Source of the DNA: Eledone cirrhosa
Taxonomy: Eukaryota
Direction of reading: 5' to 3'
DNA length: 64,000 bases
Assembly: GCA_964016885.1 (NCBI GenBank)
Contig: OZ024741.1
Coordinates: 305,288,001-305,352,000 of the forward strand
In this document: piece by piece, positions 35,863 through 64,000 of the stretch
How the letters are laid out: the number at the start of each line of letters is the position of its first letter
Position numbering within the stretch: the stretch's first letter is position 1
Program-made: the position numbers and the translations under genes
The notes under the pieces: model-generated
Database searches by the model: none
Told to the model about the DNA's origin: nothing
The model's input: only the letters and a program-made list of their open reading frames with translations

Positions 35863-37160
35863 ATCATCATCATTATCATCATTTTACGTCCGCTTTTCCC
35901 TGCTTGCAAGGGTGGGACGGATCTTATTCAGCACAGCATCTCTCCACTTGTCATGGTCCTTCGTCATCTCCACCGTGAGCTTCAGCGATCTGAGGTCTGT
36001 TCTTACCACCTCCGCCCATGTTTTTCGTGGTCTACCTCTACCACGTCTTCCTTCAACTGGCATTTCCTGGCACTTCTTCACCCATCGGTCATCCTCCATG
36101 TGCATCACATGTCCATACCACCGCAGTCTCCTCTCTCGTACACTATATTCTATCCCTCACAGACACAGTTTCTCTCTCAACACATCCATGCTGGGTCCTT
36201 CACGCACATTGACATTGCACATCCAACGGAGCATGCTTGCCTTATTTCTCTCCAGCCGTCGCATATCCTCTGCAGTTGTTGCCCAAGTCTCACTACCATA
36301 CAGCATCGCGCTCCTCACACAGATATCATATAACTGGCCTCTCATACACAGGGAGAAACCCTTCTTCGTCAGCAGAGGAAGCAGCTCCCTAAACTTCTTC
36401 CAACCCGTCCTTATTCTAGATACTATGGCCTCGAACCCTGCCCCCCCCACTCCCATGCTAATCTGATCTCCTAGGTACCGGAAGCTATCCACCACTTCTA
36501 TAGCACCCGCCTGCATTTGAAAAATGTGTCTATCAATGCGACTTCTACTGTCTAATTTCTACTGCATACGTATTTCTCCCTACCTGTTAGTTAGCCTGCT
36601 ATCCCACTACATCTCTTGTGTACCAGAATCTGCATTGTGTGCATTTTATAGAATTTATGCCAGTTCCTTTTCTGCATATCGAACATGGCCATTTCCCTGA
36701 CGGAATCAGAGTTTTGTCCTCTTTTCTACTCATCAACACTTTTGTCTTAGCTAGGTTCACTCTCAGTCCTCTTGCTTCCAACTGCTGTTTCCATAGCCAA
36801 AATTTATTCCCTAGCTCCTTTACTGATTCTGCTATAAGAACCAGATCGTCAGCATAGAGAAGTTCCCATGGACAGCCAGTCTTAAACTCCTCTGTTATGG
36901 CTTGGAGGACTATAATGAACAAGAGCAGGCTGAGGACCGAACCTTGATGTACTCCTACTTGTATCTGGAATTCCTCACTAAATTCCATTCCTACCCTGAC
37001 TTTACTGACAGCACCTCTGTACAAAGTTTTCACTGTCCTCACAAGCCATTCCTCAACACCTAGTTTCCTGAGGGACCACCAGACGACAGATCGGGGTACC
37101 CTATCAAAGGCCTTCTCTAGGTCATCAAAAGCTAAGTATAGTGGCTTATTCTTCTCTAAG
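35863..37160 (-). mobile_element. RTE LINE, 5'-truncated (RT C-half + 3' end)
   Basis: GVHQGSVLS, ELLYADDLV, FRYLGD, LYGSETW and GRRGRGRPRKTW motifs; (GAT)n tail. Confidence 0.9.
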
Positions 37161-41263: not shown

Positions 41264-42317
41264 AACATCCAATAAAATCATTGGTCTGTTTTATAAATTG
41301 TTCAATAAGCCTTTGTAAAATGGTAAAAAGTCACTCAACATCTGCCACCTCCCACATCCTACCTCACAAAACAGGAAATCCTACCTCCACAAAACTGGAA
41401 ATCAGAAAAAAAATCAAGTCGATCTTGTTTCTGTCTTCTCTTCAATCTTACACTTCTTCCCAAAACATTCACACTAAGAAAAGCAACAAGGGAAACAAAA
41501 GCAAATATAAACGAAATATATCTTCTAAGTAACTTAGAATTTCTGTTCATTATCAATTTCTTTTGTGTGATTACATAGCACTTTTTAGTCACATGTAGTT
41601 CCTGCTCATTTAAAATATTCACTTAAAGAATTCCATAACAAAAAGCAGCAACAACAACAACAACAAAACAAAGGACAAAAAAATAAAGGAAATCAAACAA
41701 AATAGGTGAAAGATATTTATGATTATGGTTGTGATTGCATATCACATTCATATATCTTATATATATATATATATATATATCTTATATATGTCTTATATAT
41801 ATATATATATGTCTTATGTATGTATGTATGTGTGTGCGTGTGTATGTATATGTATGTATGTGAACATGTGTATATATGTTTGTATGCATATATATATGTA
41901 TGTATGTATGTGTATGCATATGTTCATGACACAACATAAACGAATATACACATATTAACACATCATTTATCTGCTCTTTCTCTCTCTCCCCCATTTTCTC
42001 TTTTACACACACATATATACAAACATATATATATATATATATATACCTGCATGTATGCATACATACGTACATATTGCATGTTTATATCAATACACATTAG
42101 CATATAGGTTCAAATAATGCGTATTTTTTATGATTATATTATGTAGTGTGAATCTATTCAACTTTTATCCCTCCTTATAAAATGATATAAATACTGTTGG
42201 CTCTCAGAACACTTCATGCCTGTAAATGCTAACATAGTTATTCTAAACACACTAACAATCTAAACTGAACTAAAACAACTCAGTCCTTAGTAATTATTTT
42301 CGAAAGTTACAATAACT

Positions 42318-43500
42318 ATGAAAGAAAATGTTACTGGCACTAAGAAACAGCTTGAGACGACGGAAAATGGTGCTGATTCTAAGAAACATTTAAAGAGATC
42401 AGAGTCTTTGGTGGAGGATGTCACATGGCGTCATTACATGTATTTTGTTGTTCACTTATTCCAGTCATGTGCCACTGCCATCGGTTATCCTGTAGTATCA
42501 CAATTTCTTTATGCAAAGTTAAACAAGGAGTACCTTGAGAAATCAAACATTACATTTAATTCCAGTGATGATGATAGTTTGCGTTTGGGCCATTGCTTTG
42601 TTAATAAGTCATTGCCTGGTTATATTGTTCAACAACATGTTCAAGCTATCAGTGCTGAATGGTCACAGTGGTTCTCTCTGTGTAATGGAATACCAAGTAT
42701 CATTATTGTACTCATTGCTGGTTCCTGGGCTGATGTTCTTGGCAGAAAAGCAATATTTCTTTTAACTGCATTTGGACATATATTAAAATACATAGTATAT
42801 GGGATAGTGATGAAATTTCACCTGCGTACAGAATATTTATTAATAGGTTACATAACTGAAGGTTTTTCCGGGAGTTACTTTTTGGCCATTCTGGTAACCT
42901 ATGCATATACAGCAGATATTACACCAAAGAACAAAACACGATCCTTCTTTTTGGTAGCATCTGACAGCATATTTCACGTTTGTTTTGGACTGGCAAATTT
43001 GGCTTCAGGTTATTTCATTCGTGCCACAGGATTCTTTTGGCCACTTGTATTTGCTACATCTCTGTCAATCTTCAGTATGATTGTCTTTGTATTAATTGTT
43101 CCAGAGACTGTAAAAAGAGGAAACTTATCAGATCTTTCTCCAAAGAAAAGTGTTCTCAGGACAGTGAAATTCTATGTCGGCAGCAAAAACAAATCTAAAT
43201 ATAATAATATGAAGTTCTGGCTTTGTCTCTTGGCTTTTGGTGCATTGTCACAAAGTGTCATTGGAGAATTTAGTCTTAATACACTATATGTGCTAAATTC
43301 CCCTTTCTGTTGGGATTCTGTAAAGATTGGAAACTTTGGAGCCTTCTCATCCTTTGCGATACCTCTTTTAACGGTGGTTTTCATGAGATTGATGCAGTGT
43401 TGTGTGCCAGAACAACTTATAGCAAGTTTTTCTCTGCTGTTTTTTATGATGCGGTCTTTAGTGAAAGCTTTCAGCACTGAAGACTGGGAGATTTATATAG
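42318..43500 (+). CDS. SLC46-family (PCFT/SLC46A3-like) MFS transporter, large exon A (about TM1-9)
   Basis: 394 codons + 1 nt. Motifs GSWADVLGRK (PCFT GAWSDSVGRR), YAYTADIT and LYVLNSPFCWDS, with a glycosylated Cys-bearing loop 1. Ends WEIYI-G|gtaagt. The ORF tail beyond 43500 is intronic. Confidence 0.92.
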
Positions 43501-45472
43501 GTAAGTGCATTGAAAATATTCCAAGAATCTTCTTTCCTTTTTTTTTTTAAATGAATGTATTGTTGTGTTGCACAATCATGAAATTGATGATTGCATTAGT
43601 TTTTGTATATATTTAGTGTATACCAAGGTCAGGTGACCTGGTAGAGTGGGAGCATTAGAAAGAAGAGAGACAGATTTATAAGTAACACTACATGGTTACT
43701 GAAGTTGTATGGCGGGGGGGAATCTGAGGCTTGCAGCAGTATTAAGAAATGTGTAATGATTAAATATGAGATTCACTTTATAGCAAAAAAAAAATAACGG
43801 CTTGAAATATTTAACTTCTCCTTTTATCAATATCATTATCATAATTATAATAATTATTAGCTGGTGCCCTGCACCTTTTCTGTTTTAAAACCCATAAAAA
43901 ATGAATTTTTGGTGTATTTTGGGGACTGGAATAGATTATTCATATTTTAATTAATTTCAATGGGGAAAATTGATTTATAAAATAAGTAAATCATAAAACA
44001 AGTTCGATCATGGAATGAATTAAACTCATACTGCGAGGTATCATTGTACTTCAGTTTACATTTTCCAAAGTGTCTTTTTTTTTAACTGGTTGAGTGACCA
44101 TGTAGGGGCTCATTGATTAGATTATAGTAATTATAACTGTTGTCGTTGTGTTGCTCTAGGTCATTCTTTCTAGTTATACCATGATTTCCTCAGGTCGAGC
44201 ACCATGCTGAATATGCTAATATGCAGCTCTGAATTGTATGTGATGCAACATGACAGTTTAGACACATTGTGCTCTCCCCTCCCTCTGTCAAGCCTATTCT
44301 TGTATAACTGTTGTTATGACAGTTGTTTCTCTCTGTATTGGTGCTGGTTTGTAACTCAACACTATTGATGTTGCAGCTATTTCTATGTTTGTTTTGGATC
44401 AGTGGGAGAGGTTGTGTTTATAAAATATTGTTGTAATTGTGCTGAGGAGGTGTTGTATGTGTGTGGATGTATATGGAGGTGTATTGTTGTGTAGCGACAG
44501 AACCGAGCCCACACTGTAAAGTGGTTGTGTAGATATCACGACAAAAAGCACCCACCACACTCTGTAAATGTGGTTGGCGTTAGCAAGGGCATCCAGCTGT
44601 AGAAATCTAGCCAGAAACAGTTCTATATGAACAAGACACTGTCACCTGACCCATCTTGCCTCAAATGGGACAACCTGTCTAACACATGCTAACATGGAAA
44701 GTGGACGTTAAACGATGATGCTGATGAGGATAATGATAATGACAGAGACTATAAGTATTGACATGCTCCACCTACAAACTGTGTTCTTAGTATATTCAGG
44801 TGGTGTTTTTGTGGCCCCCTAAACTACCACATACAGGGTGGATTAGGGACATTTTGTATTAGGGATGACTGTAATAGTGAGAGCTGATTCAAGTGACAGT
44901 CTATTAAGAACTGTAGTAAGCAACTGCACTACCTTACCGCGGCGGAACAATTGGGTTGTGTTTGGTCAGTCGCCAGGCTGGTAAGTCGGCAGTGTAGGAA
45001 TACCAGGCACACCTCTTATCACTTCTAGGGAGTTGCAGCTTCCTTTTCGTAGAGACAAGACATTACTAATGGCGTAACTGACAAAATGAAACATTTACCA
45101 AGGAACTTTGGCCCTCTCGGCAAGGGCCCAGCAACATCCTACCTAGGTATATGTCACAATGGTGCCTAACATTCTATTGTAATATTTTACGGAGAAAAAT
45201 AAACCTTTTTTTTATATTTCCTCACTGTGCTTACCTATTTGATCCTTTCCTCATGAAGAAACTTAAACACACAGCCTTATAACCACATCTTCATTAAGAA
45301 TCCTTCTCGCAACCAAAAAATCGGATTCTAAAGCTTTTTCTGCTAAAGAACGTTTTGAAATGAATATTTTTATGGATTTTAACTTTTTGGCAAAAAATTA
45401 CCTTAGTAATTATGTATTATTGCCTTGTGAGATGTACTTTTTTAGAGGTATCTATAATTATTTTCTTGCACA

Positions 45473-45800
45473 TATGTACTGTAATGTTAGTGGTTGTGGT
45501 AATGTTAGATGCATGTACTGTAATGTCTGTGTTAGTGGTTGTGGTGTTGTTGTATGTACTGTAATGCCTATGTTAGTGATTATGGTGTTGTTCTATGTAC
45601 TGTAATGTCTATGTTAGTGATTGTGGTGTTGTTGACTGTATGTACTGTAGTGTCTATGTTAGTGGTTATGGTATTGTTGTATGTACTGTAGTGTCTATTT
45701 TGGTGGTTGTGGTGTTGTTAGATGCATATACTGTAGTGTCATTGTTGGTGGTTGTGGTGTTGTTAACTGTATATACTATAGTGTGTGTTAGTGATTGCAG
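45473..45800. repeat. Degenerate minisatellite (~36-42 bp unit)
   Basis: About eight copies of tatgtactgtaatgtctatgttagtggttgtggtgttgtt. Confidence 0.85.
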
Positions 45801-47194
45801 TGTTATTCAAACCTGAAAACATTGAGTCTGTTTCCTTGTGGAATCTATTAGTGTTGTAATGTTTATTTTTATCTTTTGTGAGAAGCATGTATTTTTTAAT
45901 GCATATCGTGTGAGTTTATAGTTTTTGGTACGGCAACAATGGCCCTTCTGGTTTGATTTGCCAGTGCTGTTGTTATCATTGTTTCGACAGTGAAATTGCA
46001 TATTTACCTGGAATGTTTGGAAATGGTGTTTGTTAGTTTTTGTGCAAGGATTTTGAAGACTAAATAAGAATTTTACCTTTGAATAGATGACAATCCTTGT
46101 TACTTGTTGAGATTTAATTTCTGTCATTCTATAATATTTGCACAGGATTGTTAATTTAGCTAATTTCTGGCTAGACCTAATATATTCTAACACAATATTG
46201 CCAATGAAAATAATCCCTAAGCTGATAGCTATCAATCTTCTTCTCCTACTTATTCCTGAGAGGGTTGAGCACACCTTCCAGCAGGTCCTGTCAGAAGTGA
46301 CTGTCTCCAGTTGATCTGGTTGAATCCCCAAGAGAGACTAGCCGAGTTCATTAGTGTTATCCAATCACCTTACTTGGGGTTTACCACTGGGTCTCCTGTA
46401 GATTGGTTTTGATCATAAAATCTGCCCAGTGATTCTATCTTTAGATATTCTAATCATAGTCTAGTTAATTTTAAAAATAATTTTGTGTAAATGAGAGGAA
46501 AAGGAGGGAAAGGGTTAGGATTGTTAAGCAATGAAAGAAACGGCGAAGAGGAGAGGGTGACAGACTCTACACCTATGTCAGAGTGGTGTTTTGACAGCAC
46601 CCTGTGAATAAAATGGCAAAAGCATTGCTGTGGACAATGGCCAATGATACCCATTGCAACAACCACTCCCAACATGTGGCTCCTTTTTCAGATGGGCTGC
46701 TGTCATTCCAGTTTTACAGAAGAGGTCACATGTATGGGGTCCGAGGATGCTTGAGATCTCAATGGCAAGTGGTGTATAGAGGAAGTGGCTGGACAAGCCC
46801 CAGTATTTGCTTATCTTTCTGTCCTCTGCATTGTGGGCTGCAATATCAGGGTTTGTGGCTGAAGTGACTCAGCTGGAGATGAAGAAATGTGCTGCATCAT
46901 GTTGCATCCCAGATAACGATTTATCTTCCTCAAATGGGAAGAGGGTAATTCCATGTTGTTCAGAGCAGCATGTCAGGTGAACAGGCCTGTGCTCTGGTGG
47001 CATGATAGTGGGTGCAGACCGAACCCATTGATGAGTGTAATGTGTGGTGCTAGCACCATGACAAAAAGCATCCAATCTAAACTACAAGGCAGCAGTGTTA
47101 GTGCCACAATGAAAAGCAAGCACCCAATCCTTCCAGTAAGGTGATTATACTGGTGCCATAACAAAAAGAGCTCAGTCCATACTATAAAGTGGAT

Positions 47195-48206
47195 CTCAGG
47201 AAGCTTAATTAAGAATGTAGGATTCACATGCAGCAGCTGTGCTGAAACAGCAAGCAAACAGCCACAGGAAACAAGTACCACCAATCTCTGGGAGGGCCCT
47301 GTAGAAACAGTAGACAGCTTCTGCTACCTAGGTGACCGAATTAGCAACGGAGGTGGGTGCTCAGAAAGTACAATAACTAGGGTAAGAACGGGATGGAAGA
47401 AGTTTAGGGAACTACTACCACTGCTAGCTGCAAAAGGCTTCTCCCTCAGAATGAAAGGCAGACTGTATGATGCGTGTATCCGAACAGCGATGTTGCATGG
47501 TAGTGAGACCTGGGCGCTGAAGGTGGAAGACTTACGTAGATTAGAGAGAAACGAAGCCTGTATGCTCCGATGGATGTGTAACAGTAATATACGTGAACGA
47601 CAAAGCATAAATGAATTGAGAGAGAGACTGAGCATAAGAGGAATCAAATGCTGCGTGCAGGAGAGGCGGTTACGCTGGTATGGACATGTGATGCGTATGA
47701 AGGATGACAGCTGCATAAAAAGGTGCAGAGCACTAGAAGTTGATGGAAACCGCGGAGTGGGGAGACCCAAGATGACTTGGGATGAGGTGATAAAAGCCGA
47801 CCTTACCCAACTACACCTCTCAAAGTCAATGACACACGACCGTGACTTCTGGCGTCACGCAGTAATACAGGGTACCCGACCTCCCATGGGTACATGCTGA
47901 AGCATATAAACAATATGCCCCCCCCCCCCCCCACCGCAAGGTGGTCGTGGAGGTGCCACGGCAAAAAAGCACCCAGCCCACACTGTAAAGTGGACGTGTA
48001 GGCGCCACGAAAAAGCACCCAGCACTCACTGTAAATGAGGTTGGGGTTAGGAAGGGCATCCAGCTGTAGAAATCAAGCCAGATCAGTTCCTGTATGAGCA
48101 AGGCATGGTCAGCCGACCAGACACTGCCCACAACAGGACAACCCGTCTAACCCATGCTAGCGTGGAAGAACGGACGTAAAACGGTGATGATGATGATGAT
48201 GATGTT
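47195..48206 (+). mobile_element. RTE LINE 3' end with an intact C-terminal frame and 3' UTR
   Basis: FCYLGD, LHGSETW, RRLRWYGHVMR and GRPKMTW motifs; UTR with 42-bp repeats and (GAT)n. Confidence 0.9.
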
Positions 48207-49687
48207 GATGCCATGACAAAAAACACACAGTCTGCACTATAATGCAGTAGTGCTGGTGCCATTACAAAAAGCATTACAAAAAGTTAGTAGAGCATGAGTC
48301 ACTATAAAATTATCCCAGTACTCACTGTAAAGTGGTTGGCCTTAGGAAGGGCATCTAGATGTAGAAACCAAGCCAAAAGCAGAGCATATGGGCAAGACGT
48401 GGGCACCTTACTATTATAGTCTTGGTGTATGACAGGCTGTCTAACTCATGCAAGCATGGAAAATAAACGTTAAATGATGATGATGAGGATGATGATTCCA
48501 GCGAATATATTTTTTGTTAGTATTGATAATATTCTGGTTTTCATGATAAATATTAATATTACACTTTAAACTATTTCAAATATAGAATGAACTTAAAGAC
48601 AATAACAAAATCTTTAATATAGTGAAACAGGTTTGAGCATCACACTTAAACCCTTTAGCATTTAAATCGGTCATATCTGGCCAGAATTCTCTCACCCCGT
48701 TCTGTTCAAACTGGCTGTAACTGGGCACTCATACTGATGTTAAGGTATTGTTCTCAAAATAAATAATATCAAAATCTCATAGATTCAATATCATGTGAGA
48801 TATTATGTAAAATAAAGTCTTGACTATGAAAATACAATAGTAAATATAGAGTAATGTAAATGCTAAAGGGCTAAATAACATCAACTATGGAAAGAAATTG
48901 AAAATTTAATCAGAATATTTGACTTATTTGGGAAAACTCTTCAGTTGTGCCATAGACATGACAACTTCACCAGTGATAGTGATAGTGGTCTACACAATAT
49001 ACATGCCCAGTACACTTTGTAAAGTGGGTGGTGATAGAAAGGGCATTCAGCTGTAGCAAACCTGCCAAAAAAGGGTTGTGTCAAACACATGACAACTTAT
49101 GAAATGTTGGTGCTATGGGTATAGGAAGGTATGTCAGCAGGATGCGTGCCCACTTGGCCCACCTGAAGATCAGTGGCTCTGCCTGAGTACTCACTAGTCT
49201 GAGATGACCAATCCAACATTTGTTAGTAGGGAAGATGGATGTTAAAAGATGATTGTGATGATGGTGGTGGTGATGATGATGGTGAGGATGATGATGAGGA
49301 GGAAGAGGAGGAAACAATGTTATGAAGATCTATGATCTATAAATCAAAATATCAAAATAGAAATAAGAATAATTATAAAATGTGTAATTTTCATGTAAAT
49401 TTCCTGCTATATTTTTTTTCTATAATTCAAATAAAATCTAATCCTACTTCAATTCAAAATGACAAATTTAACCCTTTCAATAGCAAGCTACTCAAAACTG
49501 TTAGTTGTAAAGTGTTTATATTTATCTAACAACTTTCCTTCATAATTTTATGTAAGTACCTTTGTTAAGTTATGTTCCAATAACCAGCTTAATAATGAGA
49601 TAGTTAGCTGTATTATTAAAAAAAACTATTAATTCTTGAATATATTCTAAATGATTTGAAAATCATAGGTTGCGTCCTTTATTAGAA

Positions 49688-51434
49688 CTAGCAGAAAAAT
49701 CACCCTTCGGGTGGTTTTCTGGAAGCTTGTGTAGTGTGTATGTTGATATTATACGCAAGTATATATACATGTAGATATGATACATCAAATAAAATCGTAA
49801 TTGACAATATAAACAGAAATTGAACGAAGACGTTGTTACACTGTCTTATGTAATCAGTAACGTAATCCATGATACATTAAAAAAAGACGATATCTAATAT
49901 ATATTTGTGAAATTGGTGGTGGTTGAAATTCAGATGTGCACGGTTAAATGGTAGTAGACGTGGTCGGACGGACATGAAGTGCCAAGGAAGCAAATAGACG
50001 AGGTTTCAAATCTCTAACTTGAAAAATGTGGTCCCTAGGGCCCCCAAAAGGCCTATTTACTATCGCGTTCGGTGAGTTATTTCCCCCTGTTCTAATACTT
50101 GGATGAGTTATTTACAATTTCATACAAATTTTTAAACTCATCAACGTTCTTTCGCTGTTAACATACAGTACCAATAATTTGAAAAATATTATTGAAAGTT
50201 TATTATAAAGAAGCAGTTGCAGGAAAAAAATATATAAATATGCACTTGGGGCTGGACGGCGTACAATGAGAAGTGGAGCGACGTGAAAAACGTTGTTTAT
50301 TAACAGCGAAATAGCAATGTCGATGATATGCAAGTTTGAAAATGCAGATTAATAACCTGTTGCCTTCTACAGTACGTTTCATTTTCATTTTTCAATTACA
50401 GTTGCTCTATATTAAATTTAAATACTTCTATAACGATCATACAGTACCGTTTTAGGAAATCGATTCTGCAGTAGAATTTTACGAAATGCCAAATCGAAAA
50501 AGGTCACTGTTTTCTAACAAAAGAAATAAAACCCTTACCTTCTCATTGTATGCTGTCCAGCCCCAAGTGCATATTTCTATTTTTTTCCTGAAACTGCTTC
50601 TTTATAATAAACTTTCAATAATATTTTTCAAATTATTAACTTAATAAAAAGTGGCCCCGGGTGCAACCGGGCTCAGCTGCTAGTTATATATAAACTGCAT
50701 TAGGAGAAAATTAGTGACAGAAAATTAGTATGTTTATTTAAGTGATCGCCACCGGAAGTGTTGACATCACACACTCTCTGTTTCTATATATATATATATG
50801 GTAGTTGAAGTGGTGGTGGTGGTGGCAACGATATACCGGAAGTGCAACTTTGAAAAGAAGTCAATTTAAATTATTTATTTTTTCGAAATTATTTTTGTTT
50901 ACGAAATTTAGTAGATAAATTATGTAATATTCATTCATTATTTATTCAAAGGGTGGAGGGCGGTGGATTGGCAGTATCGGTAGAGGGTCGGACGCCATGC
51001 TTTCCAGCATAGTTACGTCCCTTTATGATCTGAGTTCAAATCCCGCCGAGGTTGACTTTGCCTTTCATCCTTACAGGGTCGATAAAATAAAGTACCAGTA
51101 ATGCACTGGGTAATTGCTGGCCTTGTGCCTAAAGTAGAAACAATTATTTATTCAAAGGGTGGTGGATTGGCAGTATCGGTAGAGGGTCGGACACCATGCT
51201 TTACAGCATAGTTACGTCCCTTTACGATCTGAGTTCAAATCCCGCCGAGGTTGACTTTGCCTTTCATCCTTACGGGGTCGATAAAATAAAGTACCAGTAA
51301 TGCACTGGGTAATTGCTGGCCTTGTGCCTAAAGTAGAAACAATTATTTATTCAAAGTAATCCAACTTATTTTACTAACTGGATAAAAAAAAAAACGTACG
51401 CAGTCCCACAGACCTTCCTTTATTATAGTTTAGA
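49688..51434 (-). mobile_element. Non-autonomous Helitron-like element (minus strand), composite
   Basis: The minus strand starts A|TCTAAACTATAATAAA at 51434 and ends hairpin CACCCGAAGGGTG...CTAG|T at 49688. It contains a second hairpin+CTAG end at 50657-50682 and a SINE dimer. Confidence 0.55.
50952..51356 (+). mobile_element. Tandem dimer of SINE family 2
   Basis: Two ~190-bp copies, each bounded by ttatttattcaaag (three occurrences). Confidence 0.88.
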
Positions 51435-51462
51435 TATGATAAGGAAGAGGTTAAGGTGTTTA

Positions 51463-52360
51463 TCTATATTACTTGTTTGTCTGGTTGTACTATCACTAAA
51501 ACTCGACAACCACCCAACCGATTGTTTTCAAACTTTACACATGTAATACTTATGGTCCTATTGAGTGTTCTGAGCAAACAAATTTCAAATTTTCAATGCC
51601 CTAGGGACCGCATAGAGCGATTTAGTGATCTCTGTCTATAATTCTTAGTCTTTCTCTTTTTAGATAGATACATAGATATGACGTCGCGCCTTTATAATAT
51701 CTGTCTGTATGCCTGCTGTCTGCATTACGTCATTATGACGCGATCAGTGTGTGTATATATATGTATATATATATTCTTATGCCAGGGAACGTCTTCACGA
51801 ACCAAGTGTCGTCTTTCTGTTTTCCTTAGGCTGCAACGTTTTTCGAAATATTTACATCTGCGTTCACAGATTGATTTTTTTAGTTTCAGAAGATCCCTTT
51901 AAGGTTGAAAGTAGCGATTCTTTGCTTAAACTTTAATATCTTGTTTTAATATAGATAATCGTGTACAGATATTTTTGCCTACACAAAAACAAAATATAAA
52001 CAAACAAGGCCAACGATTACATCAGTTAGTCTTAGTGTACTTCATACTGCTTTTAGGTAGAAGATCCCGTTAAGGGTGAAAGCAGCGATTCTTTGCTTAA
52101 ACTTTAATATGTTATTTTAATATATATATATATATATAATTATATATTCGTGTACAGATATTTGTGCATACATAATAACAAAATATAAACAAAAGTATTT
52201 ATTTCTCGATAAAGTATTGATTTTCTTCGCACGGAAAAAAACACAGGTAATGTACGACCAATTTATTTTTATAAGCATAAAATGTAGACACTATCCCGAG
52301 GCTGAGGTGTTCCATTCTTCACTGTACTGTTATATATATATATTGTATTGATTTTTATAC

Positions 52361-52413
<53 letters not shown>

Positions 52414-52701
52414 TATAAATAAAACGAAAAATCAGTGATGCATCTGGTCTTAATTTATTGCGTGCTACAATTGTTTCTCTAGCAGGTAGCTCGAGACATG
52501 GTCTTTGTATGGATCTGGCTGATTCTACTTCTGCAGGTTCATTCACAGACGAGTATTTCGTTTGGAGCAAATTTTATCACGCAATAAATTAAGTCCAGAT
52601 GCATCACTGATTTTTCGTTTTATTTATACTATCTACACTCTACTCTGATGAATATCGAGTGCTAATTTTGGCATACCGCCCATGGAAGCACTATAGCTAC
52701 C

Positions 52702-52756
<55 letters not shown>

Positions 52757-53075
52757 GTGTACAGATATTTTTGCATACACAATAACAAAATATAAACAAA
52801 CGTATTTATTTCACGCGGCTCGATAAGGATAAATATACATAAAATATATAAGAACCCTAGAGCAAATCCCGAGCAACGCCGGGCCATTCAAGGATAAATA
52901 TATATAATTTTTGCATACACAATAACAAAATATAAACAAAAGTATTTATTTTGCGATAAAGTATTGATTTTCTTCGCACGAAAAAAAAAACAGGTAATCT
53001 ACGACAAATATTTTTATAAGCACAAAATATAGACACCATCCCGAGGCCGAGGTAATCCGTACTTCTCTGTACTGT

Positions 53076-53167
<92 letters not shown>

Positions 53168-53306
53168 GTGTACAGATATTTTTGCATTCACAATAACAAA
53201 ATATAAACAAACGTATTAACTTCACGAGGCTCGAGAAGGATAAATATATATCAAATATATAAGAACCCTAGAGCAAATCCCGAGCAACGCCGGGCCATTC
53301 TGCTAG
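51463..53306 (+). mobile_element. Non-autonomous Helitron-like element
   Basis: A|TCTATATT 5' end; 3' hairpin CCCGAGCAACGCCGGG followed by CTAG|T; no TSD; internal tandem duplications and (TA)n. Confidence 0.7.
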
Positions 53307-55887
53307 TATTTATCTAAAAGCTTTCCATCATAATTCTATGTAAGATTCCTTTTTAAGTTCTGTTCCAATAATCAGAAAGTTATATTATTAGAAAATTATA
53401 TTATCATATAACTCTAAATTCTTGATTATTTTCAAAATAATTTCAAAATCATAGGAAATGTCTTTCATTAGAAATATGATATTGAAAGGGTTGAAAACTA
53501 ATCATATACTCTCGGGTCCCAAATAATAGGGAGTGGGGTTTGGAAATTCGGTAATTTTTCTAGGTTGTCTCTTGATTTCTTTTAAAAGCCAGAATTAGTT
53601 GTTTAGTTTACATATTAAGACCCCAACCCAACCTATTTGTAATGTACTTTTTTAGTCATGTATAATGTTTTTTAATGTATAAAAAAAATTCATTGCTATA
53701 GGAATGCTACCACTTAAAATAAAATTTCGCCAGGGATTGATTGGCAAAAAGAGCAGGGAGTGTGGGACTGAAAAATTAATAAGTATGGTAATTTTGGAAT
53801 AATTGTATTAAGTATTTTACTTTAAAATACAGAACAGTGTTGCCACTTTGTGAGAATTGTTGAGATGGGCAACTTGCAAGGGGTCATCTATCATGCATTA
53901 TAAATTTAGGGAAATATTTGAGCATGTCGGTTAAAAATAAAAAAATAAATATAATAAAAACATAGTTAAAATTAGGAATGACTTAAGCTTGCGTGGCTGA
54001 AAATTTAATTGGGGCCCATGTACATTATTTTTGACCTTTTAAATATTGCCGCTTGTTAACTCTTAACATCCTATAATGTTTTAGCATAAAACATCTAAAA
54101 GTAGGTTTGTTAATTGAAATGTTTGTAGTATCTTTATTACTGGACAGATCATTGTGGAAATTTTCACGAGATTGAAATAAAGATTTTAATTTGTAATATG
54201 ATTGGGATAAAGCTGACTTTGCACAATTAGACCCTGCTAAGGCAATGACACATGACCGTGATCTCTGGTGCAATGTAGTATTACAGAAGACCTATCTTCC
54301 CATATGCTGAGGCATATATCTAGTAGGTAACACCTTCTCCTACCATATCCCCTCCCTTGCTGTAATCATCCCACCCTATACCTACATCACCAATTCCCCA
54401 GGCATCTTCCCCACTCTGCTCAAGTCCCCAATCCACACCATAAAGTGGTCCCCTTGGAGTCACGACAAAAGCGCCCATTTCACACTGTAAAGTAGTCATG
54501 TATGTGTCATGACAAAAAACGCCCAGTCCGCACTGTAAAGTGGTCATGTAGGTGTCACAACAAAAAGCACCCAGTCCACACTGTAAAGTGGCCGTGTTAG
54601 TGACACGACAAAAAGTGCCCAGCCCATACTGTAGAGTGGTCATTTAGGTGTCATGATAAAAAGCACCCAGCACACACTGTAAATGTGTTTGACATCCAGC
54701 CATAGAAACAAAGCCAAAATCAGTTCTGTGTGAGTGAAACACGGTCCTCCGACCTGATCTCTCACAAAGGGACAGCCAATCCTATCCATGCTAGTGTGGA
54801 AAATGGATGTTAAATGATGATGATGATGCAGTCCTTGTGCTGTTTTGTGCTATACAAGCATATCTTGCTCATTTGGTTTCATGCTGTACAAGATGTTAAA
54901 TAATAAATTTTGTATAACAAAAAAAAAAGCATGCCATAAATCAACCATTCTTCTCAAAGTCATTTCTAAAATTTGGTTATCATCATCATTTAACATCTGT
55001 CTTCCCTATTAGCAAGGTTGGATGAGTCTTCACAGACTGAATCAGTACTATAACAGGGCTACTGATTTCTCAGATGGACCAAGGGCCTGTATTTTGCTTA
55101 CATACATTCCTGCTCTACCAACTGTATTTTATTGTATCATGGCCCCAGCACTAAGGAGGTGGTCATGTCTTTGACACAGCTGAAGAGTCCTCCCAAGTGA
55201 ATCATATTATACTGAGTGAATTTTCTTATACTGTGCTTGTGGCATGCACAGTAGTTATCACCAAAGTGATAGTCGTGAAGAAAAATATCAGATTAGTTTA
55301 ATATTTTGTTAGTAACTTAATATATGTGTAATTTTCTGTATCATCATCATCATTGTTTAACGTCCATCTTCCACGCTAGCATGGGTTAGACGGGAGTTGT
55401 CCCACTTGAGGCAAGCTTGGTCGGGTGACCGTGTGTCGCTCATATAGGACTATCTGGCAGGATTTCTACGGCTGGATGCCCTTCCTAACACCAACCACAT
55501 TTACAGTGTGGCCTGGGAACTTTTTACCGTGTTACCTACACGACCACATTACAGCGTGGACTGTGTGTTTTTTTTTTTGTTGTGACACCTACACAGTCTC
55601 AATTTCATTATCTCATTTATTTGGACTGGATATTGTGATACTAACTTTACAAAGGGAGGGTGGTGTTGGTGGGAGTGGGAGGATAGAGTAGGGGTAGTGG
55701 ATTGGGGTGTATATTTGGTTAAGCGGTGCCTACTGACTGTAGGTTTTGCTTTGTACATAGGCAAGGTGGGTCTTATCTCTTTTATATTTTTATAATAAAT
55801 AAATAAATGGATATATATATAATAAATTCTTTTTATTTCAAGTTTTCATGTATCTAAATTCTGACAATTGATTATTAAATATGACAT

Positions 55888-56229
55888 GGAGGCACATGGC
55901 TTAGTGGTTAGAGCATTGGCCTTGTAATCGAAAGGTTGTGAGTTCAATTCTCAGACCGGGTGATGTGTTGTTTCCTTGAGCAAGACACTTTATTTCACAT
56001 TGCTCCAGTTTACTCAGCTGTAGAAATGAGATGATAGGGACCCCAGTCCCTATCATTCCACTACAAAGTGGTCGTGGGGGTGCCATGGCAAAAAAAGCAC
56101 CCAGCACTCACTGTAAATGAGGTTGGTGTTAGGAAGGGCATCCAGCTGTAGAAATTAAGCCAGAATCAGTTCCCATCCCACCCTTGCAAGCAGGGAAAAG
56201 CGGACGTAAAATGATGATGATGATGATGA
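55888..56229 (+). mobile_element. SINE family 1, full-length copy
   Basis: Near-identical to 2748-3101. A partial third copy lies at about 30439-30665. Confidence 0.88.
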
Positions 56230-58357
56230 CTAATGATTCTGAGAGGGAGGTTAATTGCCAGAATCAAAGAGCATTATACAGTTGGAAGTTGACAACAGTA
56301 AAAAAAACATATGTGCTTGAATTCCAGAGGGTCAAAATTCAGGGAAGAAAGGATTGGACCTAGTGGTTAGTCCTGGTCCAGCATGGATATACTATGGGTA
56401 ACAAGAGGAAGAAGAAAAGAGATGAATGAGCTGGGAGTGCTTGAGTGGAGATGGTAAGAGAACATCCAGATCCAAGGAGCAGAGGCCATAGAAGTATAGG
56501 TGGAAATGTCAGAAAGAGGAGACACAGCGCATCTGTGGCCAAAATTTGGGGTGTGTTCGTGAGTGACTTCAGGCTAATTTGGATATCTTTCTTTAAACCT
56601 GGTCTAAAATATTTGTATGTGTAGCAGCAACAGTAGCATCACTATCCTAGATGTAGGAGCAGTAGTCCATTGACTGGAGAGTTAGTAGTTGTTGAGGGCT
56701 GGAATATTTTCTGACACTGAAGAAGAAGACCAGTTCTGGGGATGCAGCTTTGGTGATATTGAGGATGAGCTTTTACCAACAGAGATCCTCAACAATAGTG
56801 AAGCTTAGTATTTGTTGCAACTTTGAGGGTTCTTAGTGGTACATAGATCATGTTTAGGGGAAGATGTAAAATATTTTTTGATATGTGTATCATCATCATC
56901 ATCATCATCATTGTTTAACGTCCATATTCCCCGCTTGCATGGGTTTGGACGGGAGTTTTCCCACTTGAGGCAAGAGTGGTTGTCTTGCTCGCATAGGACT
57001 GTCTGGCGGGTTTTCTACAGTTGGATGCCCTTCCTAACACCAACCACATTTACAGTGTGGAACCGGGAGGTTTTTACCATGTTACCTACACGGCCACATT
57101 ACAGCGTGGACTGTGTGTTTTTTTGTTGTGACACCTACACGACCTCATTTGTTTCGGCCTGGATGTTGGTACCAACATAACTTTACATTGAAAAGGGTGG
57201 TGTGGATGGGGTGGGGTAGTGGGACGGAGGTATATTTTGTTAGAGATGCCTACTGACTGTAGTAGGTTTTACTTTGTATTTAGGTAAGGCGGGTCTTCTC
57301 TATTACTCTGTAGCGCCAAAGATCTCGGTCCAGTGACAGTCTATTAAAGGGATTTGAACATGAGAAGCTTCAGTTGGGGTGCTTCACTCAGCAACTTCTT
57401 ACTGACAAAACCATCTCTTTATAACAATGTTTCTCAATTTGTTTTGTCCCTTGCCCACTTCAATTAAAAAAAAAAAAATCTCTGCCACCATGATTAAACA
57501 AAGTTAGTAAATAGCATAACATATACACTCAATTCTAAATTCCCATACCCCACCAGTAGGTGTGTGCACCCTACTTTCAAAAACACCAGCATAAAGTTTA
57601 TGTATCTTTGACATGTATTTGGAATTGCAATATTTTTCATTTTTACATTTCACATAATCCGTTATATTAAAAATAAATCGTTTAAGTATTGTTCCTTTAA
57701 GTTACTTTTAAAAACTACACATTCCTGAATTTTGCTTTAATTAATAATGTTCTAATTAACAAGAATGGCTGTGTGGTTAAGAAGGTCACTTGGCAACCAT
57801 AGGGTTTCCAGTTTGATGCCATAGTGTGGCACTTTGGGTATGCATTTTCTGCATTAGATTGGCTAATACATTTGTGTGTTGAATTTGGTAGGTGGAAACT
57901 GTGCAGAGCTCTGCCAAATATATATAACTAAAAACCATGATTTAGTACTGAAAGAAAAAGCAAAACAAAACAATGACAGAGGAAAAAATGTTTAGTAAAA
58001 TTAAAATGTTCTATAAAAATAATAGAGAATTTTTCAAATAAATTTCATAGTAAAAATAGATATGTTTTTCTACACAAAAAATGTCTCAACACAAAATTCA
58101 GTATCTTTAAATCAAATAAATATTTCTTTAAAATATTTTGGTTTATAAGTCGTTGCTATCTCTATCACTCGACTAGCATTGTATCTTAATTAGCAAGTCA
58201 TTAGATGAACTTGTTGCTATATCAATATCACAATGATTCTGCTTTTTACAAAAAAACAACAGTTTTTGATTGAAAAATAAAAATAAAAATATAGAATGTT
58301 TATATAATTCATTGGATTTGGAATTTTGAACAGATAGCAGTTGCTGCTTACATCAAA

Positions 58358-59486
58358 ATGGTAGCTGAAGGAAAACCAAAGAAAATTGAACGACTTGACT
58401 CACTTGTCCAAAATGTTACTTGGCGACATTACCTGTTTTTTGTCATTCATATGTTACAGTCAGTGGCTTCATCTATTGGACAGCCTGTTTTAACCCAGTA
58501 TTTATATGGTAAGATAAAAAGAGAATATTTTATTGAAAATAACATCACTGAAACAGAACCACACCGTCGTCTTGGACATTGCTATAAGAATGTTACTAGC
58601 CCAGGCTACAAGTTACAACAAGAAGTACAATCCATTAATGCAGAATGGATGCAGTGGTTTTCTTTAAGCACTGGCATTCCCAGCATCATCGTTATTTTCA
58701 TTGCAGCATCATGGATAGATGTTCTTGGGAGGAAAATTGTGGTTACTATCAATATGACTGGACATATGCTTAGATACCTTATGTATTGCCTTGTTATGAA
58801 ACTGAATTTGAAAACTGAGTATCTTTTATTTGGTTACATTATTGAAGGATTAGTTGGAGGACATTTGCTGAATATAATCGTCACCTATGCATACACTGCT
58901 GATATTACTCCACGTAATAAAAAGAGAGGTTTCTTACTTGTTGTCGTTCACAGTATTTCACATATCTGTTATGGATTAGCTCACTTGGGGTCAGGATATT
59001 TTATTCAAGCAACAGGTTATTTATGGCCTTTAGTATTTGCAATTTGTTTGTCTGGAGTTTTGATCATTCTTTTTGTATTCATAGTTCCAGAGACTATGCC
59101 GAGAGGTAAACTCTCAGAACTTTCTCTGAAGAAGAGTTTTTTTAGGGTAACCATGTTTTATACCTCCAACAAAACTAAGTCTGGCTCACTAAGATTGAAA
59201 TTTTGGCTTTGTTTATTGGCGTTTGCATCATTAAGTCAAGGCATAATTGGAGAATTTGGTCTGGAGGTACTCTATGAATTAAATGCTCCTTTCTGTTGGG
59301 ACTCTGTCAAACTTGGCTTATATGGTGCTGTGATGTCTATAGGTATACCAATTCTTTCCATTGGTACATTGAAATTAATGCAAAAATGTTTATCAGAACC
59401 ACTAATTGGTTTTACTTCATTAATATTCTTCATGCTAAGATCTCTCATCCGCGCATTTTCAACTGAAACATGGATGCTCTATTTAT
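58358..59486 (+). CDS. SLC46-family MFS transporter, large exon B (about TM1-9)
   Basis: 376 codons + 1 nt. Motifs ASWIDVLGRK, YAYTADIT and LYELNAPFCWDS. Ends WMLYL-T|gtaagt at the position homologous to exon A. Possible acceptor ttttgaacag at 58333 ahead of the ATG. Confidence 0.92.
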
Positions 59487-60295
59487 GTAAGTATCATGAG
59501 TTTAATATAAATATTTGCTTTTGTATGAACTGTTTATGAGAAAACATAAAATGTTGCTGAACTCAAACCATTGCACACAAAATAACTGAAAAACTTTGTC
59601 TTATTCCAGATTTAAGTATGGCTGTTACATCAAAGCCAGTCATTCATCTGTTATTAACTCCCACACCATTTAAACTTCAGCATCATTTTCATTGTTATCA
59701 TTGTTTTTATGTCCATTTTCCCATGCATGTACTGACTGGATGGAGACCAGAGTTCATTACAGTTTGATGTGGCATTAAGCAGATGAGAGTACAAGCCTTC
59801 CTTTTGGATGGGAACACCAATGCATCAGTTCCTTGATTGTTGCTAACATATTTTGTCCATGCCATACTGAAAGATAGTCATTGACTTCTTTCATATGAAA
59901 TCACCATTGGGTCTATGAAACTAAGCTATTTACTTTAAAGTGTTTATATTTACCTAAAAAACCTTCCCTCATAATTCTATGCAAGAACCTTTGTTAAGTT
60001 CTATTAAAAAAATCTACTTAATAATTAGAAAATTAGTTATGCTACTAAATCCTTAAAAATGTTTGGTTATTTTCCAGATTGGCAGTGTCTTTCAATAAAA
60101 GTATGGTAATGAAAGGGTTAAGTGTAGTTATTTATGTATATTTGTATGTTCTGTTTATATTTATTAAATTTTTCCAATAAACAAGAAGACGTTTCCGCAG
60201 TAAAGGTTCTCTCACTAGAATTTAGAAAACAATACCTAAGAAATCTGGTATAGTCCTACTGTTCCATACACACATACACATATATATTACATTAT

Positions 60296-60348
<53 letters not shown>

Positions 60349-61099
60349 CAACATTGACCTCAGTAAAATTTAAACTCAGAATGTAGAAAGTTGTAACTAA
60401 ATGTTGTAAACCATCTTGTCCATTGCTCTACTGATACAACCAATCCACCACCCTATAAAATAGATGGAATAATGATATAGTTTCTTTAAATTTTCAAAAG
60501 TAGATTTTTAACTATGAAACCTCTTACGATGACTGACCCTGGCTGTATCATTTCAAAATTATTCTTTATATGCCTTTATTTCTTCACAATAAGTTAAATG
60601 ATATAAATTCTGTACCAAAACTTATAAATTTTCCATATATATATATGTGTGTGTGTGCGTGTAAGTGTGTATTACAGTATGAATACATGGCCTTTATTAA
60701 GTTAGTGGCTGTATCTGTAGAGCATCAGACAACATGCTTAGTGGCATAAAGTTAGGCCCTTTACGTTCTAAGTTCAAATCTCACTTTGCCTTTCATCCTT
60801 ACAGGATCGAAAAATAAAGCACCAGTAATTCACTTGGGATGATTTAATCGACTTTTCCCTCCCGCAAAATTGCTGGCCTTGTACCTAAATCTGAAATCAT
60901 TAAGTTAGAGCAGATGTTTACCTTGTAATCATTGTCAAATGTAACAAATGAAGACCATGCACAGGACTCATTGGTATCCATTTAATCTATGAAATATGAA
61001 TCTTTTAAGAGGGGCAATAAACAAATCCTTGCTTTAAGTTTTTCTGTGTTCAATTCAGAGTGGAAGTCATCAAAGCAAACACTTTCTTTGTTCAATGTA

Positions 61100-61181
<82 letters not shown>

Positions 61182-62062
61182 TGTAAAATCCTGACCACAG
61201 CGCCAAGCGGTTTCGTCTTGTGTATTCAGCGCGCCTTTTAAAGGGTGTAGTAATATTTGCAGGGTGTATAAAAATAGGTCGCTAGTCTTGGTCGAATTTA
61301 TCATAGAAGTAAACTGGGCTGATGAAGAAAGTGGGTGGGGGACAGAGAATGGTAAGTGTATCTGGACAGGCAAGGGGGTCAGGAGAAGGAAGAAGTGTGA
61401 GCGGTTAGTGGGTAGAAGAAGGGTATAATAGGAGTGGAGAGGTGAGGGTTAAGGCTATATATATACATATGTATGTGTACATATTTGTGTGTGCTTATAT
61501 ATATGTATTTTTGTGTGTTGTTGTGTATACATATGTGTGTGTATGTGTGTATTCACGTATATATATTTCTGTGTCCTTGTACTCATGGTTGTGGCTATAC
61601 TGGAGCAAACACTATTTATACTGTTGTTATATTGTGACAATGTGGAGATCCTTGGTTGTTGTCCATTACTGGTGAGCGCAGGAATTCCTTTCTGGTTTAT
61701 GCTGATATTTATAACCAGATAACTTTTATTTCTTATCAGATAAATGGGCCAACTCATTTGGAACCAATAAGGAATGTAATCAGTAATAGATTGATAACCA
61801 AGTAGCTTCACCTCCATACTTGCAAATTCATGTTAACATTATCTCTAAGAATAAGCAATGCAAAGATCTTCCCATTTTATGTATGTCTGCAAGATAAGAT
61901 TTCTTTGTTACTATTTATTTTATCATTGTTTATAAGCAATGGATTGTGTTTATAATCATTATCCTAGTATGAAATCAACTGCATCCTGGTGCTGATCTCA
62001 GAACAACCAAACTTAGAAATTCTTTTCTATTAAGTTTATCTGGTTGGTTTGACTTAGCCAAT

Positions 62063-63242
62063 ATGGTGAAACAAAAAGATTCTTACAACATCACACCTGT
62101 TGAACAACGAGATGGAAATAACACTGAGATTGACAAACAAGATTCTCTCGTCGATAAAGTAACATGGAGACATTATTCATTTTTCTTTATTCATTTTTTG
62201 GAAGATATATCATATGCTATTAGCTATCCTGTAATGGATCAATATTTGTATGCCAAATTAGCCGAAGAACACATTGAAAATACTTCATTCTCTATTAATT
62301 CGACTTTCAGTCATGGAGGCAATTCACTGTGCTCAGTGAACAAGACATCACCTGCTTATATATTACAACAGAAAGTCCAGGCTGAAGCAGCGTCATGGGG
62401 GTTTTATTTTGTTTTGACACAAGGCATACCTCAATCATTTATGGTTCTGCTTATGGGAAGTTGGGCTGATGTTCTTGGCAGAAAACCAGTCATGGCCTTT
62501 AATATGTTAGGCTATGCTGCAAGATGTGCCATCTACATAGCTGTAATGCATTGGAAATTACCAACAGGGTATCTTCTTATAGGATATTTTCTAGAGGGGA
62601 TTGCTGGGGGTTATTACGGTAATACTCTTCTGGCCGTTGTATATACTGTAGATTTAACTGCAAAGGGACGCTTCAGAGGAACATTTCTAGTCATTGTAAA
62701 CAACCTGTCTTATTTATTCTATGGCATTGTTAACTTTGGCACAGGCTATTTTATTCGTACTTATGGCTTTTTCTGGCCAATAGTCAGCTCTTTTATATTT
62801 AAAATCATTCTCATTATTTTAATATTAGTTCTCCCCAAAGAAACAATGAAAACACGAGGCAGTTGGTCAGAACTTAAACTTGGTAAAAGCATTAAGCGAG
62901 TTTTGAAATTTTATCTGAAAGCTGATAGACACCAAAATAAAAATTCTCGCTTAAAATTTTATTTGTGCATCCTATGTTTCATAACTTTATGTCAAAGTAT
63001 ATATGGCACATGGTCTATTGAAACATTGTACCAGTTCAACTCACCATTTTGCTTTGATTCTATCAAGCGTGGACGTTATGTTGGAATAATATCCATTGTT
63101 CAACCGGCCGTCAGTGTCATTTCTTTAAAGATTTTACAGCGATTTTTTGAAGATGATATAATTGGTCTCATTGCAATCTTCTCATCGATAACCCAGAATG
63201 TAATTGTAGCTTTATCATATTCAGAATGGATGATTTACACAG
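62063..63242 (+). CDS. SLC46-family MFS transporter, large exon C (about TM1-9)
   Basis: 393 codons + 1 nt. Motifs GSWADVLGRK, YTVDLT and LYQFNSPFCFDS. Ends WMIYT-G|gtaact, with the same phase and position as exons A and B. It is the most divergent of the three. Confidence 0.92.
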
Positions 63243-64000
63243 GTAACTATTTATTGAAATGTTTTTCACATCAATATTCTCAATATTCTTCACAACCTCA
63301 CTAAGCACTTTTGAGAAAGAATTAACTAACCATGACACACTTTTGATTCTCAGTGGTCCTAAGTCATTAATGAATTTGAGAAAGACATAAAAGAATAAAC
63401 ATAATTACATCCTCATTTTCTTTTCCTCATAAAATAGATGACTTCTGTCCCTAGTCAAAACATAAACACTATTTATTTTCCATGCAAATGATAGCCTTGA
63501 GTTTTTTTCCTTGGATTCTGTTGTTTTGTCCTATCAGCAGCATATGTACATCTTCGTATATGCATAGTTATCGAATAAGGTTTAGTAAGATCAAAACATA
63601 TCTGGAGTTGTCACTGTGTCTGTTAAACCACATTAGCTATTTCCAATATCAATTAATTTGGACTTACCTCATTTCAAAAGCAATGTTTTATATTTTTTAT
63701 GTTGAATTGTCTCTCTTGCTTTTGGTTTTATTAAGCACCGTTGAACACTGTTTACCTTACCACAACAACACAGGTAGAGTTTTGATTAATTAAATTTATT
63801 GTTCTTGCCATATTAGCACTTATTTCAGTGTGTATGAATATGTATGTATATATGTATATATAAATGTATGTTTTTATGTATGTATGTACCCCAAACTTGC
63901 CACAATCCAATTACTGAAACCATTAAAAGAATAAAAGAATAGCAAGAAAAACAGACATTAAAAGATGATAATAATTGTTCTATTTTTGGCACAAGGCCAG

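What the first reader, a model, noticed from the sequence alone, without database searches (positions are those of the whole stretch)
42318..63242. Candidate variable-exon/constant-exon SLC46 transporter cluster (UGT1A/protocadherin-like architecture)
Seen: three same-strand, uninterrupted 1129-1183 nt exons, each with its own ATG, each encoding about TM1-9, and each ending W-x-x-Y-x at a phase-1 GT donor (43501, 59487, 63243). Known: this position matches human SLC46A1 intron 2 (c.1081), after which short exons supply TM10-12 (PVIR..LS..V...EQG, ALF, FNSLY). Seen: I found no such exons in 43501-58357, in the short 59487-62062 gap, or before 64000; these intervals are mostly accounted for by transposons. 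Inference: frames and donors that stay intact despite strong divergence imply selection, so A and B are unlikely to be dead partial duplicates. The simplest model is alternative large exons spliced onto one shared C-terminal module downstream of the window, giving a modular transporter repertoire from one locus. I know of no such architecture described for an SLC46 gene.
Basis: partly seen in the sequence, partly recalled or inferred. Interest (0 to 1): 0.88.

Follow-up and report, generated by a model that had tools for sequence, protein, structure and literature searches.

The report
Octopus transporter with three swappable fronts
One octopus gene holds three different front ends of a membrane transporter ahead of a single back end, and likely makes three transporters with different pores by splicing each front to that shared back end, a design known from detox enzymes and fly taste receptors.

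Summary
Confirmed and extended. The three exons (A 42318-43500, B 58358-59486, C 62063-63242) are open, paralogous (37-57% identical) and end at phase-1 GT donors. One three-exon C-terminal module lies 5.7-10.4 kb past exon C, outside the window. It is the only one in 364 gap-free kb and the only close copy in the genome. The same profile finds private modules behind every gene of two ordinary SLC46-like tandem pairs. Each exon joins the module in frame (529-547 aa). RefSeq models of Octopus sinensis (X1-X3) share an identical 149-aa C-terminus on C-, A- and B-type fronts. Unnamed cuttlefish-type spliced proteins show the same design. No RNA of this species was available, and own promoters versus a shared leader is unresolved. 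By alignment to chicken PCFT the fronts supply six of eight pore helices. The TM5 gate acid is Asp, His or Asn across A, B, C, while its TM10 Arg partner is shared. PCFT's folate-binding Arg, Asp and Tyr are absent. The architecture is known (UGT1, Gr39a) and the isoforms are already auto-annotated; seven paper searches found no description in an SLC46/MFS gene. This scan noted what appears to be the same gene in another genome (e1-8671828).

The parts
42318..43500 (+). Variable exon A, ATG to phase-1 donor; about TM1-9 of an SLC46-like MFS transporter; TM5 gate position Asp
   Evidence: 80% to O. sinensis isoform X2; clade 100/100
58358..59486 (+). Variable exon B, same layout; TM5 gate position His
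   Evidence: 86% to O. sinensis X3; clade with Argonauta 100/99
62063..63242 (+). Variable exon C, same layout, the most divergent; TM5 gate position Asn
   Evidence: 76% to O. sinensis X1; clade with Argonauta 100/99
63243..64000 (+). Start of the intron that leads to the shared module, which lies OUTSIDE the window. With window numbering continued: constant exon 1 at 68960-69043 (84 nt, TM10 with the conserved Arg; G000:C2:305356960-305357043); constant exon 2 at 70159-70315 (157 nt, TM11-12 with the conserved Glu; C2:305358159-305358315); constant exon 3 at 73383-73602 to TGA (cytoplasmic tail; C2:305361383-305361602), AATAAA at 73736

Best explanation
Three intact, paralogous large exons, each encoding about nine membrane helices of an SLC46-like transporter, lie ahead of a single three-exon C-terminal module, and each is likely spliced separately to that module to give three 12-helix transporters. 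SHOWN: anatomy, phases, one module, open spliced frames, and matching protein records in relatives. INFERRED, how an exon is chosen: most likely each exon is a first exon with its own promoter (about 65%). A front's donor then skips to the first strong acceptor, at constant exon 1, and any downstream fronts go out with the intron. A shared non-coding leader with mutually exclusive splicing is the alternative (about 30%). INFERRED, function: the front supplies the whole N-bundle plus TM7-9, six of the eight pore-lining helices and the extracellular gate. It would set substrate choice and proton coupling. The shared TM10-12 and tail would supply half of the inner gate and one sorting address. 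Most likely these are endolysosomal or surface carriers of organic anions or peptide-like solutes rather than PCFT-type folate carriers. INFERRED, origin: the ancestral gene already had one large TM1-9 exon; tandem duplication of that exon alone built the array. The C versus A/B split predates the octopus-cuttlefish split.
For: One module in 364 kb without N: constant exon 1 37.0 bits (next best 9.8), constant exon 2 76.9 bits (next best 10.5). A genome search with constant exon 2 gave 2 matches of 4 candidates: itself and a 41% paralogue 35 kb behind a separate SLC46-like gene on C1. Positive control: the same profile finds a private TM11-12 exon behind 2 of 2 genes on C6 and 2 of 2 on C14. 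In-silico splices are open, 547/529/546 aa. O. sinensis XP_036363466.1, XP_029643288.1 and XP_036363467.1 (isoforms X1-X3) share 149 identical C-terminal residues with fronts 40-57% alike. O. bimaculoides X1 and X2 share theirs too. Unnamed Logan proteins P0027 (3 contigs, longest 1746 nt) and P0030 (42 contigs) share 132 identical residues with fronts 53% alike. The same fronts also occur as intron read-throughs (P0005, P0032), so the joined forms most likely come from RNA assemblies. P0030's cluster holds a Sepia pharaonis record. Selection: fronts are 76-86% identical to O. sinensis against 59% for the tail of the same gene; paralogue pS is saturated at 0.75-0.78 with pN 0.29-0.43. 25 of 143 distant homologue predictions break off at this same boundary into a Gly/Cys/Ser read-through, so the intron is ancestral. 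Contig depth over the constant exons is about that over B and C, not three-fold (weak). Pore helices and gate residues are from PMC11929075 and PMC7612623 (passages), mapped.
Against: No junction was seen in this species. The RefSeq isoforms are automated models whose read support I did not see. No A-type Argonauta or C-type O. bimaculoides record turned up in three searches. In cuttlefish-type data no C-type front was seen joined to the shared module, and the C-related proteins P0012/P0038 have a C-terminus of their own. Exon C has four AG sites with pyrimidine-rich tracts within 150 nt of its ATG, which fits a spliced leader; A and B have none at that threshold. No promoter motif is shared by all three. 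The constant-exon-1 profile is insensitive: it found 1 of 2 control genes on C6, weakly, and none on C14, so the absence claim rests on exon 2. One of three DNA runs shows a 1-base deletion in exon C in a single contig; the other two do not show it. The TM5 residue differs between orthologues (B: His/His/His/Gln; C: Asn/Gly/Asp), so its functional meaning is uncertain. Residue mapping rests on a sequence alignment only.
Confidence: 0.9

Rival explanations
1. Same three isoforms, but chosen by mutually exclusive splicing from one promoter and a shared non-coding leader upstream of A. This is a sub-variant of the best explanation; the value given is its share.
For: AG acceptor-like sites lie 28-126 nt before C's ATG. 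The element shared by A and C upstream ends in CAG|AACA and could be an acceptor.
Against: A and B have no AG with at least 60% pyrimidines within 150 nt of the ATG. In A a TATAWA lies about 30 nt before that shared element, which suits a core promoter; this is weak, 6 of 200 shuffles in one of three pairs. Exons over 1.1 kb are more often terminal than internal (general knowledge, recalled).
Confidence: 0.28
2. Only C plus the module is a gene; A and B are orphan partial duplicates or make truncated nine-helix proteins.
For: Many database records of A/B types end in intron read-through. B has AATAAA 608 nt into its intron.
Against: A and B are intact, 80-86% identical in O. sinensis and better kept than the tail. 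A- and B-type fronts are joined to the module in two Octopus annotations, and two related fronts in cuttlefish-type Logan contigs. The read-through tails differ between species.
Confidence: 0.05
3. Three separate genes whose near-identical C-terminal modules were collapsed or lost in assembly.
For: The introns are repeat-rich. No listed contig spans the whole stretch. The DNA runs are one sample and may be the assembly's source.
Against: No N in 364 kb. B-C is only 2.6 kb and yields no C-terminal exon. Depth over constant exons is not three-fold. Other species' records independently show one identical C-terminus including the variable tail.
Confidence: 0.03

Closest known systems
Drosophila Gr39a, also Gr23a, Gr28b, Or46a, Or69a (PMC2204066; passages read)
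   Same: Tandem large exons, each with its own start codon, a GT donor and most of the membrane helices, spliced singly to three small shared exons.
   Different: Gr39a is a 7-TM chemoreceptor with only TM7 shared. Here the protein is a 12-TM alternating-access transporter and the shared part contains pore and gate helices.
Vertebrate UGT1, GCNT2 and UGT2A variable-first-exon clusters (PMC1885805; passages read); clustered protocadherins (search listings only)
   Same: Tandem paralogous variable exons and one downstream constant set; the variable part is thought to set substrate choice; GCNT2 also has three variable exons.
   Different: There the split runs between soluble domains; here it cuts through the C-terminal helix bundle of one membrane domain. 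A promoter per exon is shown there and untested here.
RefSeq 'solute carrier family 46 member 3-like' isoforms X1-X3 of Octopus sinensis and X1-X2 of O. bimaculoides
   Same: Orthologues of C, A and B on one identical C-terminus: the same gene, already modelled automatically.
   Different: Names only. No paper on the architecture or function was found.
PCFT/SLC46A1 (PDB 7bc6; PMC7612623 passages), SLC46A2/A3 and Drosophila CG8046 muropeptide carriers (PMC11509177 passages)
   Same: Only PDB hit (E 4e-41 for the full isoform). TM10 Arg and TM11 Glu are kept, as are two Cys that probably match the loop disulphide.
   Different: PCFT Arg156, Asp164 and Tyr323 are not kept in any front. Glu193 is acidic in A only.

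Membership tests
Variable-exon/constant-exon cluster (UGT1/GCNT2/Gr39a type) | Tandem paralogous large exons, each with a start codon and a donor of the same phase | tested here: met
Variable-exon/constant-exon cluster (UGT1/GCNT2/Gr39a type) | One downstream set of constant exons, none between the variable exons | tested here: met
   with positive controls on C6 and C14
Variable-exon/constant-exon cluster (UGT1/GCNT2/Gr39a type) | Each variable exon spliced separately to the first constant exon | tested here: inconclusive
   Met by protein records in O. sinensis (3 of 3 fronts), O. bimaculoides (2 seen) and cuttlefish-type Logan proteins (2 fronts). No RNA of this species to test.
UGT1/protocadherin type in the strict sense | Each variable exon has its own promoter | not testable with these tools
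   No RNA 5' ends; the upstream motif comparison was weak
SLC46 / MFS transporter | MFS_1 above the curated cut-off; nearest solved structure PCFT | tested here: met
SLC46 / MFS transporter | 12-TM fold | tested here: inconclusive
   Near gap-free alignment to PCFT over residues 90-463. Hydropathy gave 10 peaks, two of them overlapping. The fold prediction never returned.
PCFT-type folate transporter (SLC46A1 function) | TM4 Arg156-Asp164 pair and TM8 Tyr323 | tested here: not met
   Tyr, Ser/Gly and Pro in all three fronts
PCFT-type folate transporter (SLC46A1 function) | TM5 acid (Glu193) to TM10 Arg384 inner-gate salt bridge | tested here: inconclusive
   Arg kept in the shared module; the acid is Asp in A, His in B, Asn in C

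The most novel reading that the evidence does not exclude
Coleoid cephalopods evolved a modular transporter: swapping the front exon changes not only the substrate pocket but the energy coupling. One gene would yield a proton-coupled carrier (A, acid kept opposite the shared Arg) and differently coupled or uncoupled carriers (B His, C Asn), used in different tissues on one shared gate and sorting tail. It would be a natural set of chimeras that tests how MFS half-bundles set specificity.
Probability: 0.3. Interest if true: 0.8.

Novelty: new variant of a known kind. Interest (0 to 1): 0.6.

Why it matters
Variable/constant clusters are known for enzymes, adhesion molecules and insect chemoreceptors. 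Here the split cuts through the helix bundle of an alternating-access transporter, so three fronts only 37-57% alike must each gate against the same TM10-12. That gives natural, evolution-tested chimeras for asking which helices set substrate and proton coupling in the poorly understood SLC46 family. The design appears in both octopods and cuttlefish. It also shows an annotation trap: several public records list the fronts as truncated separate genes. Tempering this: only three fronts, a known architecture, isoforms already auto-annotated, and no known substrate.

Tried and rejected
RNA evidence in this species: no RNA holder listed. The three runs laid cover introns as well as exons, i.e. DNA of one sample, and showed no splice joints among the rows printed; this says nothing on expression. 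AlphaFold job for the O. sinensis X2 isoform (alignment A2, 108 rows) never finished (last poll), so there is no model and no fold search. Same architecture at other SLC46-like loci: rejected for the C6 pair and the C14 pair (private TM11-12 exons); the C1 gene shows one large exon. Same design in other animals: of 7260 pairs, the 45 with the largest excess of C-terminal over N-terminal identity were all among the cephalopod proteins. The library is clustered at 50%, so power is low and this is no evidence of absence. A fourth or decayed front: none in 100 kb upstream of the window or 200 kb downstream or in the genome. dN/dS between species was not possible (no DNA of relatives); between paralogues dS is saturated. 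Shared promoter motif: not significant for A-B (150 of 200 shuffles) or B-C (174 of 200), marginal for A-C (6 of 200). Paper searches with no description of this locus or of such an MFS gene: (listings only). The library lacks most subscription papers, and no supplements were read.
Full report
Observation. The window is G000:C2:305288001-305352000 of a 3.0-Gb genome; its closest named proteins are octopod. All three pass Pfam MFS_1, and the only solved relative of A is chicken PCFT. They are 57% (A-B), 37% (A-C) and 41% (B-C) identical, with saturated synonymous sites.

The missing end. I fetched 200 kb downstream of the window and 100 kb upstream. tblastn with full-length relatives found one set of three exons at 68960-69043, 70159-70315 and 73383-73602 in continued window numbering, all with AG/GT ends and matching phases. 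Joined in a script, each front reads through the module without a stop: 547, 529 and 546 aa. Profiles from 108 homologues found one copy of each of the first two constant exons in the 364 kb. The best scores inside A-B and B-C were 5.0 and 4.3 bits for constant exon 2, against 76.9. As a control the exon-2 profile found a private exon behind both genes of a pair on C6 and both of a pair on C14. The exon-1 profile was weak on those controls, so the claim rests on exon 2. A genome search with exon 2 gave itself and one 41% paralogue belonging to a separate gene on C1. Three DNA runs of one sample gave contig depths of 6.9-9.1 over B, 5.2-7.9 over C, 8.5-9.7 over constant exon 1, 6.8-10.7 over exon 2 and 5.5-14.6 over exon 3. 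That does not look like a three-fold collapse, but such depth is a poor copy measure and the sample may be the assembly's source.

Relatives. O. sinensis isoforms X1, X2 and X3 carry C-, A- and B-type fronts on an identical 149-residue C-terminus, tail included. O. bimaculoides X1 and X2 do the same for A and B. Argonauta has a C-type front on the module and a B-type front recorded as a truncated gene. These are automated models; I did not see their read support. Stronger, because assembled from reads: unnamed Logan proteins P0027 and P0030 have fronts 53% alike and 132 identical C-terminal residues. The same fronts also occur unspliced, so the joined forms most likely come from RNA. A Sepia pharaonis record is in P0030's cluster.

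History. In a maximum-likelihood tree of 26 fronts, A, B and C each group with their octopod orthologues (100/99-100). A, B and two cuttlefish-type fronts form one clade (99/99) apart from the C group (92/89). The C versus A/B duplication therefore likely predates the octopus-cuttlefish split. One-to-one orthology of A and B to the cuttlefish fronts is unresolved (89/90, 82/75). The shared modules of octopods and cuttlefish group together (92, quick tree) apart from the private C-terminus of P0012/P0038, a C-related whole-gene copy not found in this genome. 25 of 143 distant homologues break off at the same boundary with a Gly/Cys/Ser read-through, as does the C1 paralogue. The large TM1-9 exon is thus ancestral, and duplicating it alone suffices to build the array.

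Mechanism. The boundary maps to chicken PCFT 368/369, upstream of Arg384 on TM10 (PMC7612623, passages). The pore is lined by TM1, 2, 4, 5, 7, 8, 10 and 11 (PMC11929075, passages), so each front gives six of the eight and the module gives two. PCFT's inner gate is held by Glu193 (TM5) and Arg384 (TM10). Among 97 distant full-length homologues the first site is acidic in 77 and the second is Arg in 83. Here the Arg and the TM11 Glu lie in the shared module, while the TM5 site is Asp in A, His in B and Asn in C. It is stable among A orthologues but variable among B and C orthologues. PCFT's Arg156, Asp164 and Tyr323 are absent from all fronts, so PCFT-type folate carriage is unlikely. Other SLC46 members carry muropeptides in endosomes (PMC11509177, passages); the substrate here is unknown. 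I infer that the choice of front sets substrate and coupling while the tail gives a common address. How a front is chosen is unresolved. I favour a promoter per exon (about 65%) on analogy and the lack of good acceptors before A and B; C has acceptor-like sites.

Comparison and novelty. The architecture matches Gr39a (PMC2204066, passages) and UGT1/GCNT2/UGT2A (PMC1885805, passages). It works like them, but strict membership of the UGT1 type needs the untested promoters. Seven searches listed no paper on this locus or on such an MFS gene, within the library's limits. Other notes report variable-first-exon genes elsewhere in this genome (unchecked), so the design may be recurrent in octopods.

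Verdict. A real, conserved variable/constant transporter gene; new variant of a known kind; confidence 0.9 in the architecture; interest 0.6.

Noticed in passing
P0012, P0037, P0038, P0043 (unnamed Logan proteins): A C-related transporter with its own private C-terminus, apparently a whole-gene copy outside the array; no counterpart in G000.
   Followed up: partly
P0041 = XP_036363468.1, O. sinensis: A 139-aa truncated, slightly diverged copy of the C-type front recorded as a separate gene: a decaying fourth front or an assembly artefact.
   Followed up: no
window about 42120-42210 and 61915-62005: A and C share a short upstream element (TATA-like word, then TCTCAGAACA); 6 of 200 shuffles. It could be a core promoter or an acceptor remnant.
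   Followed up: partly
constant exon 3 (L009:9383-9602) and relatives' tails: Otherwise divergent tails keep an N-x-x-(Y/F) word near the end (NQGY here; NLGY, NAAY, NKAF in relatives). A sorting signal is possible; that reading is recalled and untested.
   Followed up: no
G000:C6:40.51-40.56 Mb and C14:37.79-37.88 Mb: Two ordinary tandem pairs of SLC46-like genes. The C14 pair is a recent duplication (91-96% DNA identity over the aligned pieces) with a third, extra TM11-12 exon copy behind the first gene.
   Followed up: partly
G000:C22:30118360-30119244 (+): Another SLC46-like match inside a 498-codon open frame, possibly an intronless family member.
   Followed up: no
window 3205-5589 (-); 28243-28773 (+); 36602-37189 (-); 47145-47897 (+): An LTR-retrotransposon pol frame (RT, RNase H, integrase) and further RT fragments. 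The 47145 frame in the A-B intron looks LINE-like by eye but has no Pfam hit.
   Followed up: no
L051 and L054 (G000:C14:37780001-37784100 and about 37810200-37812100): Two arrays of an about 161-bp tandem repeat, 83% alike, 30 kb apart.
   Followed up: no
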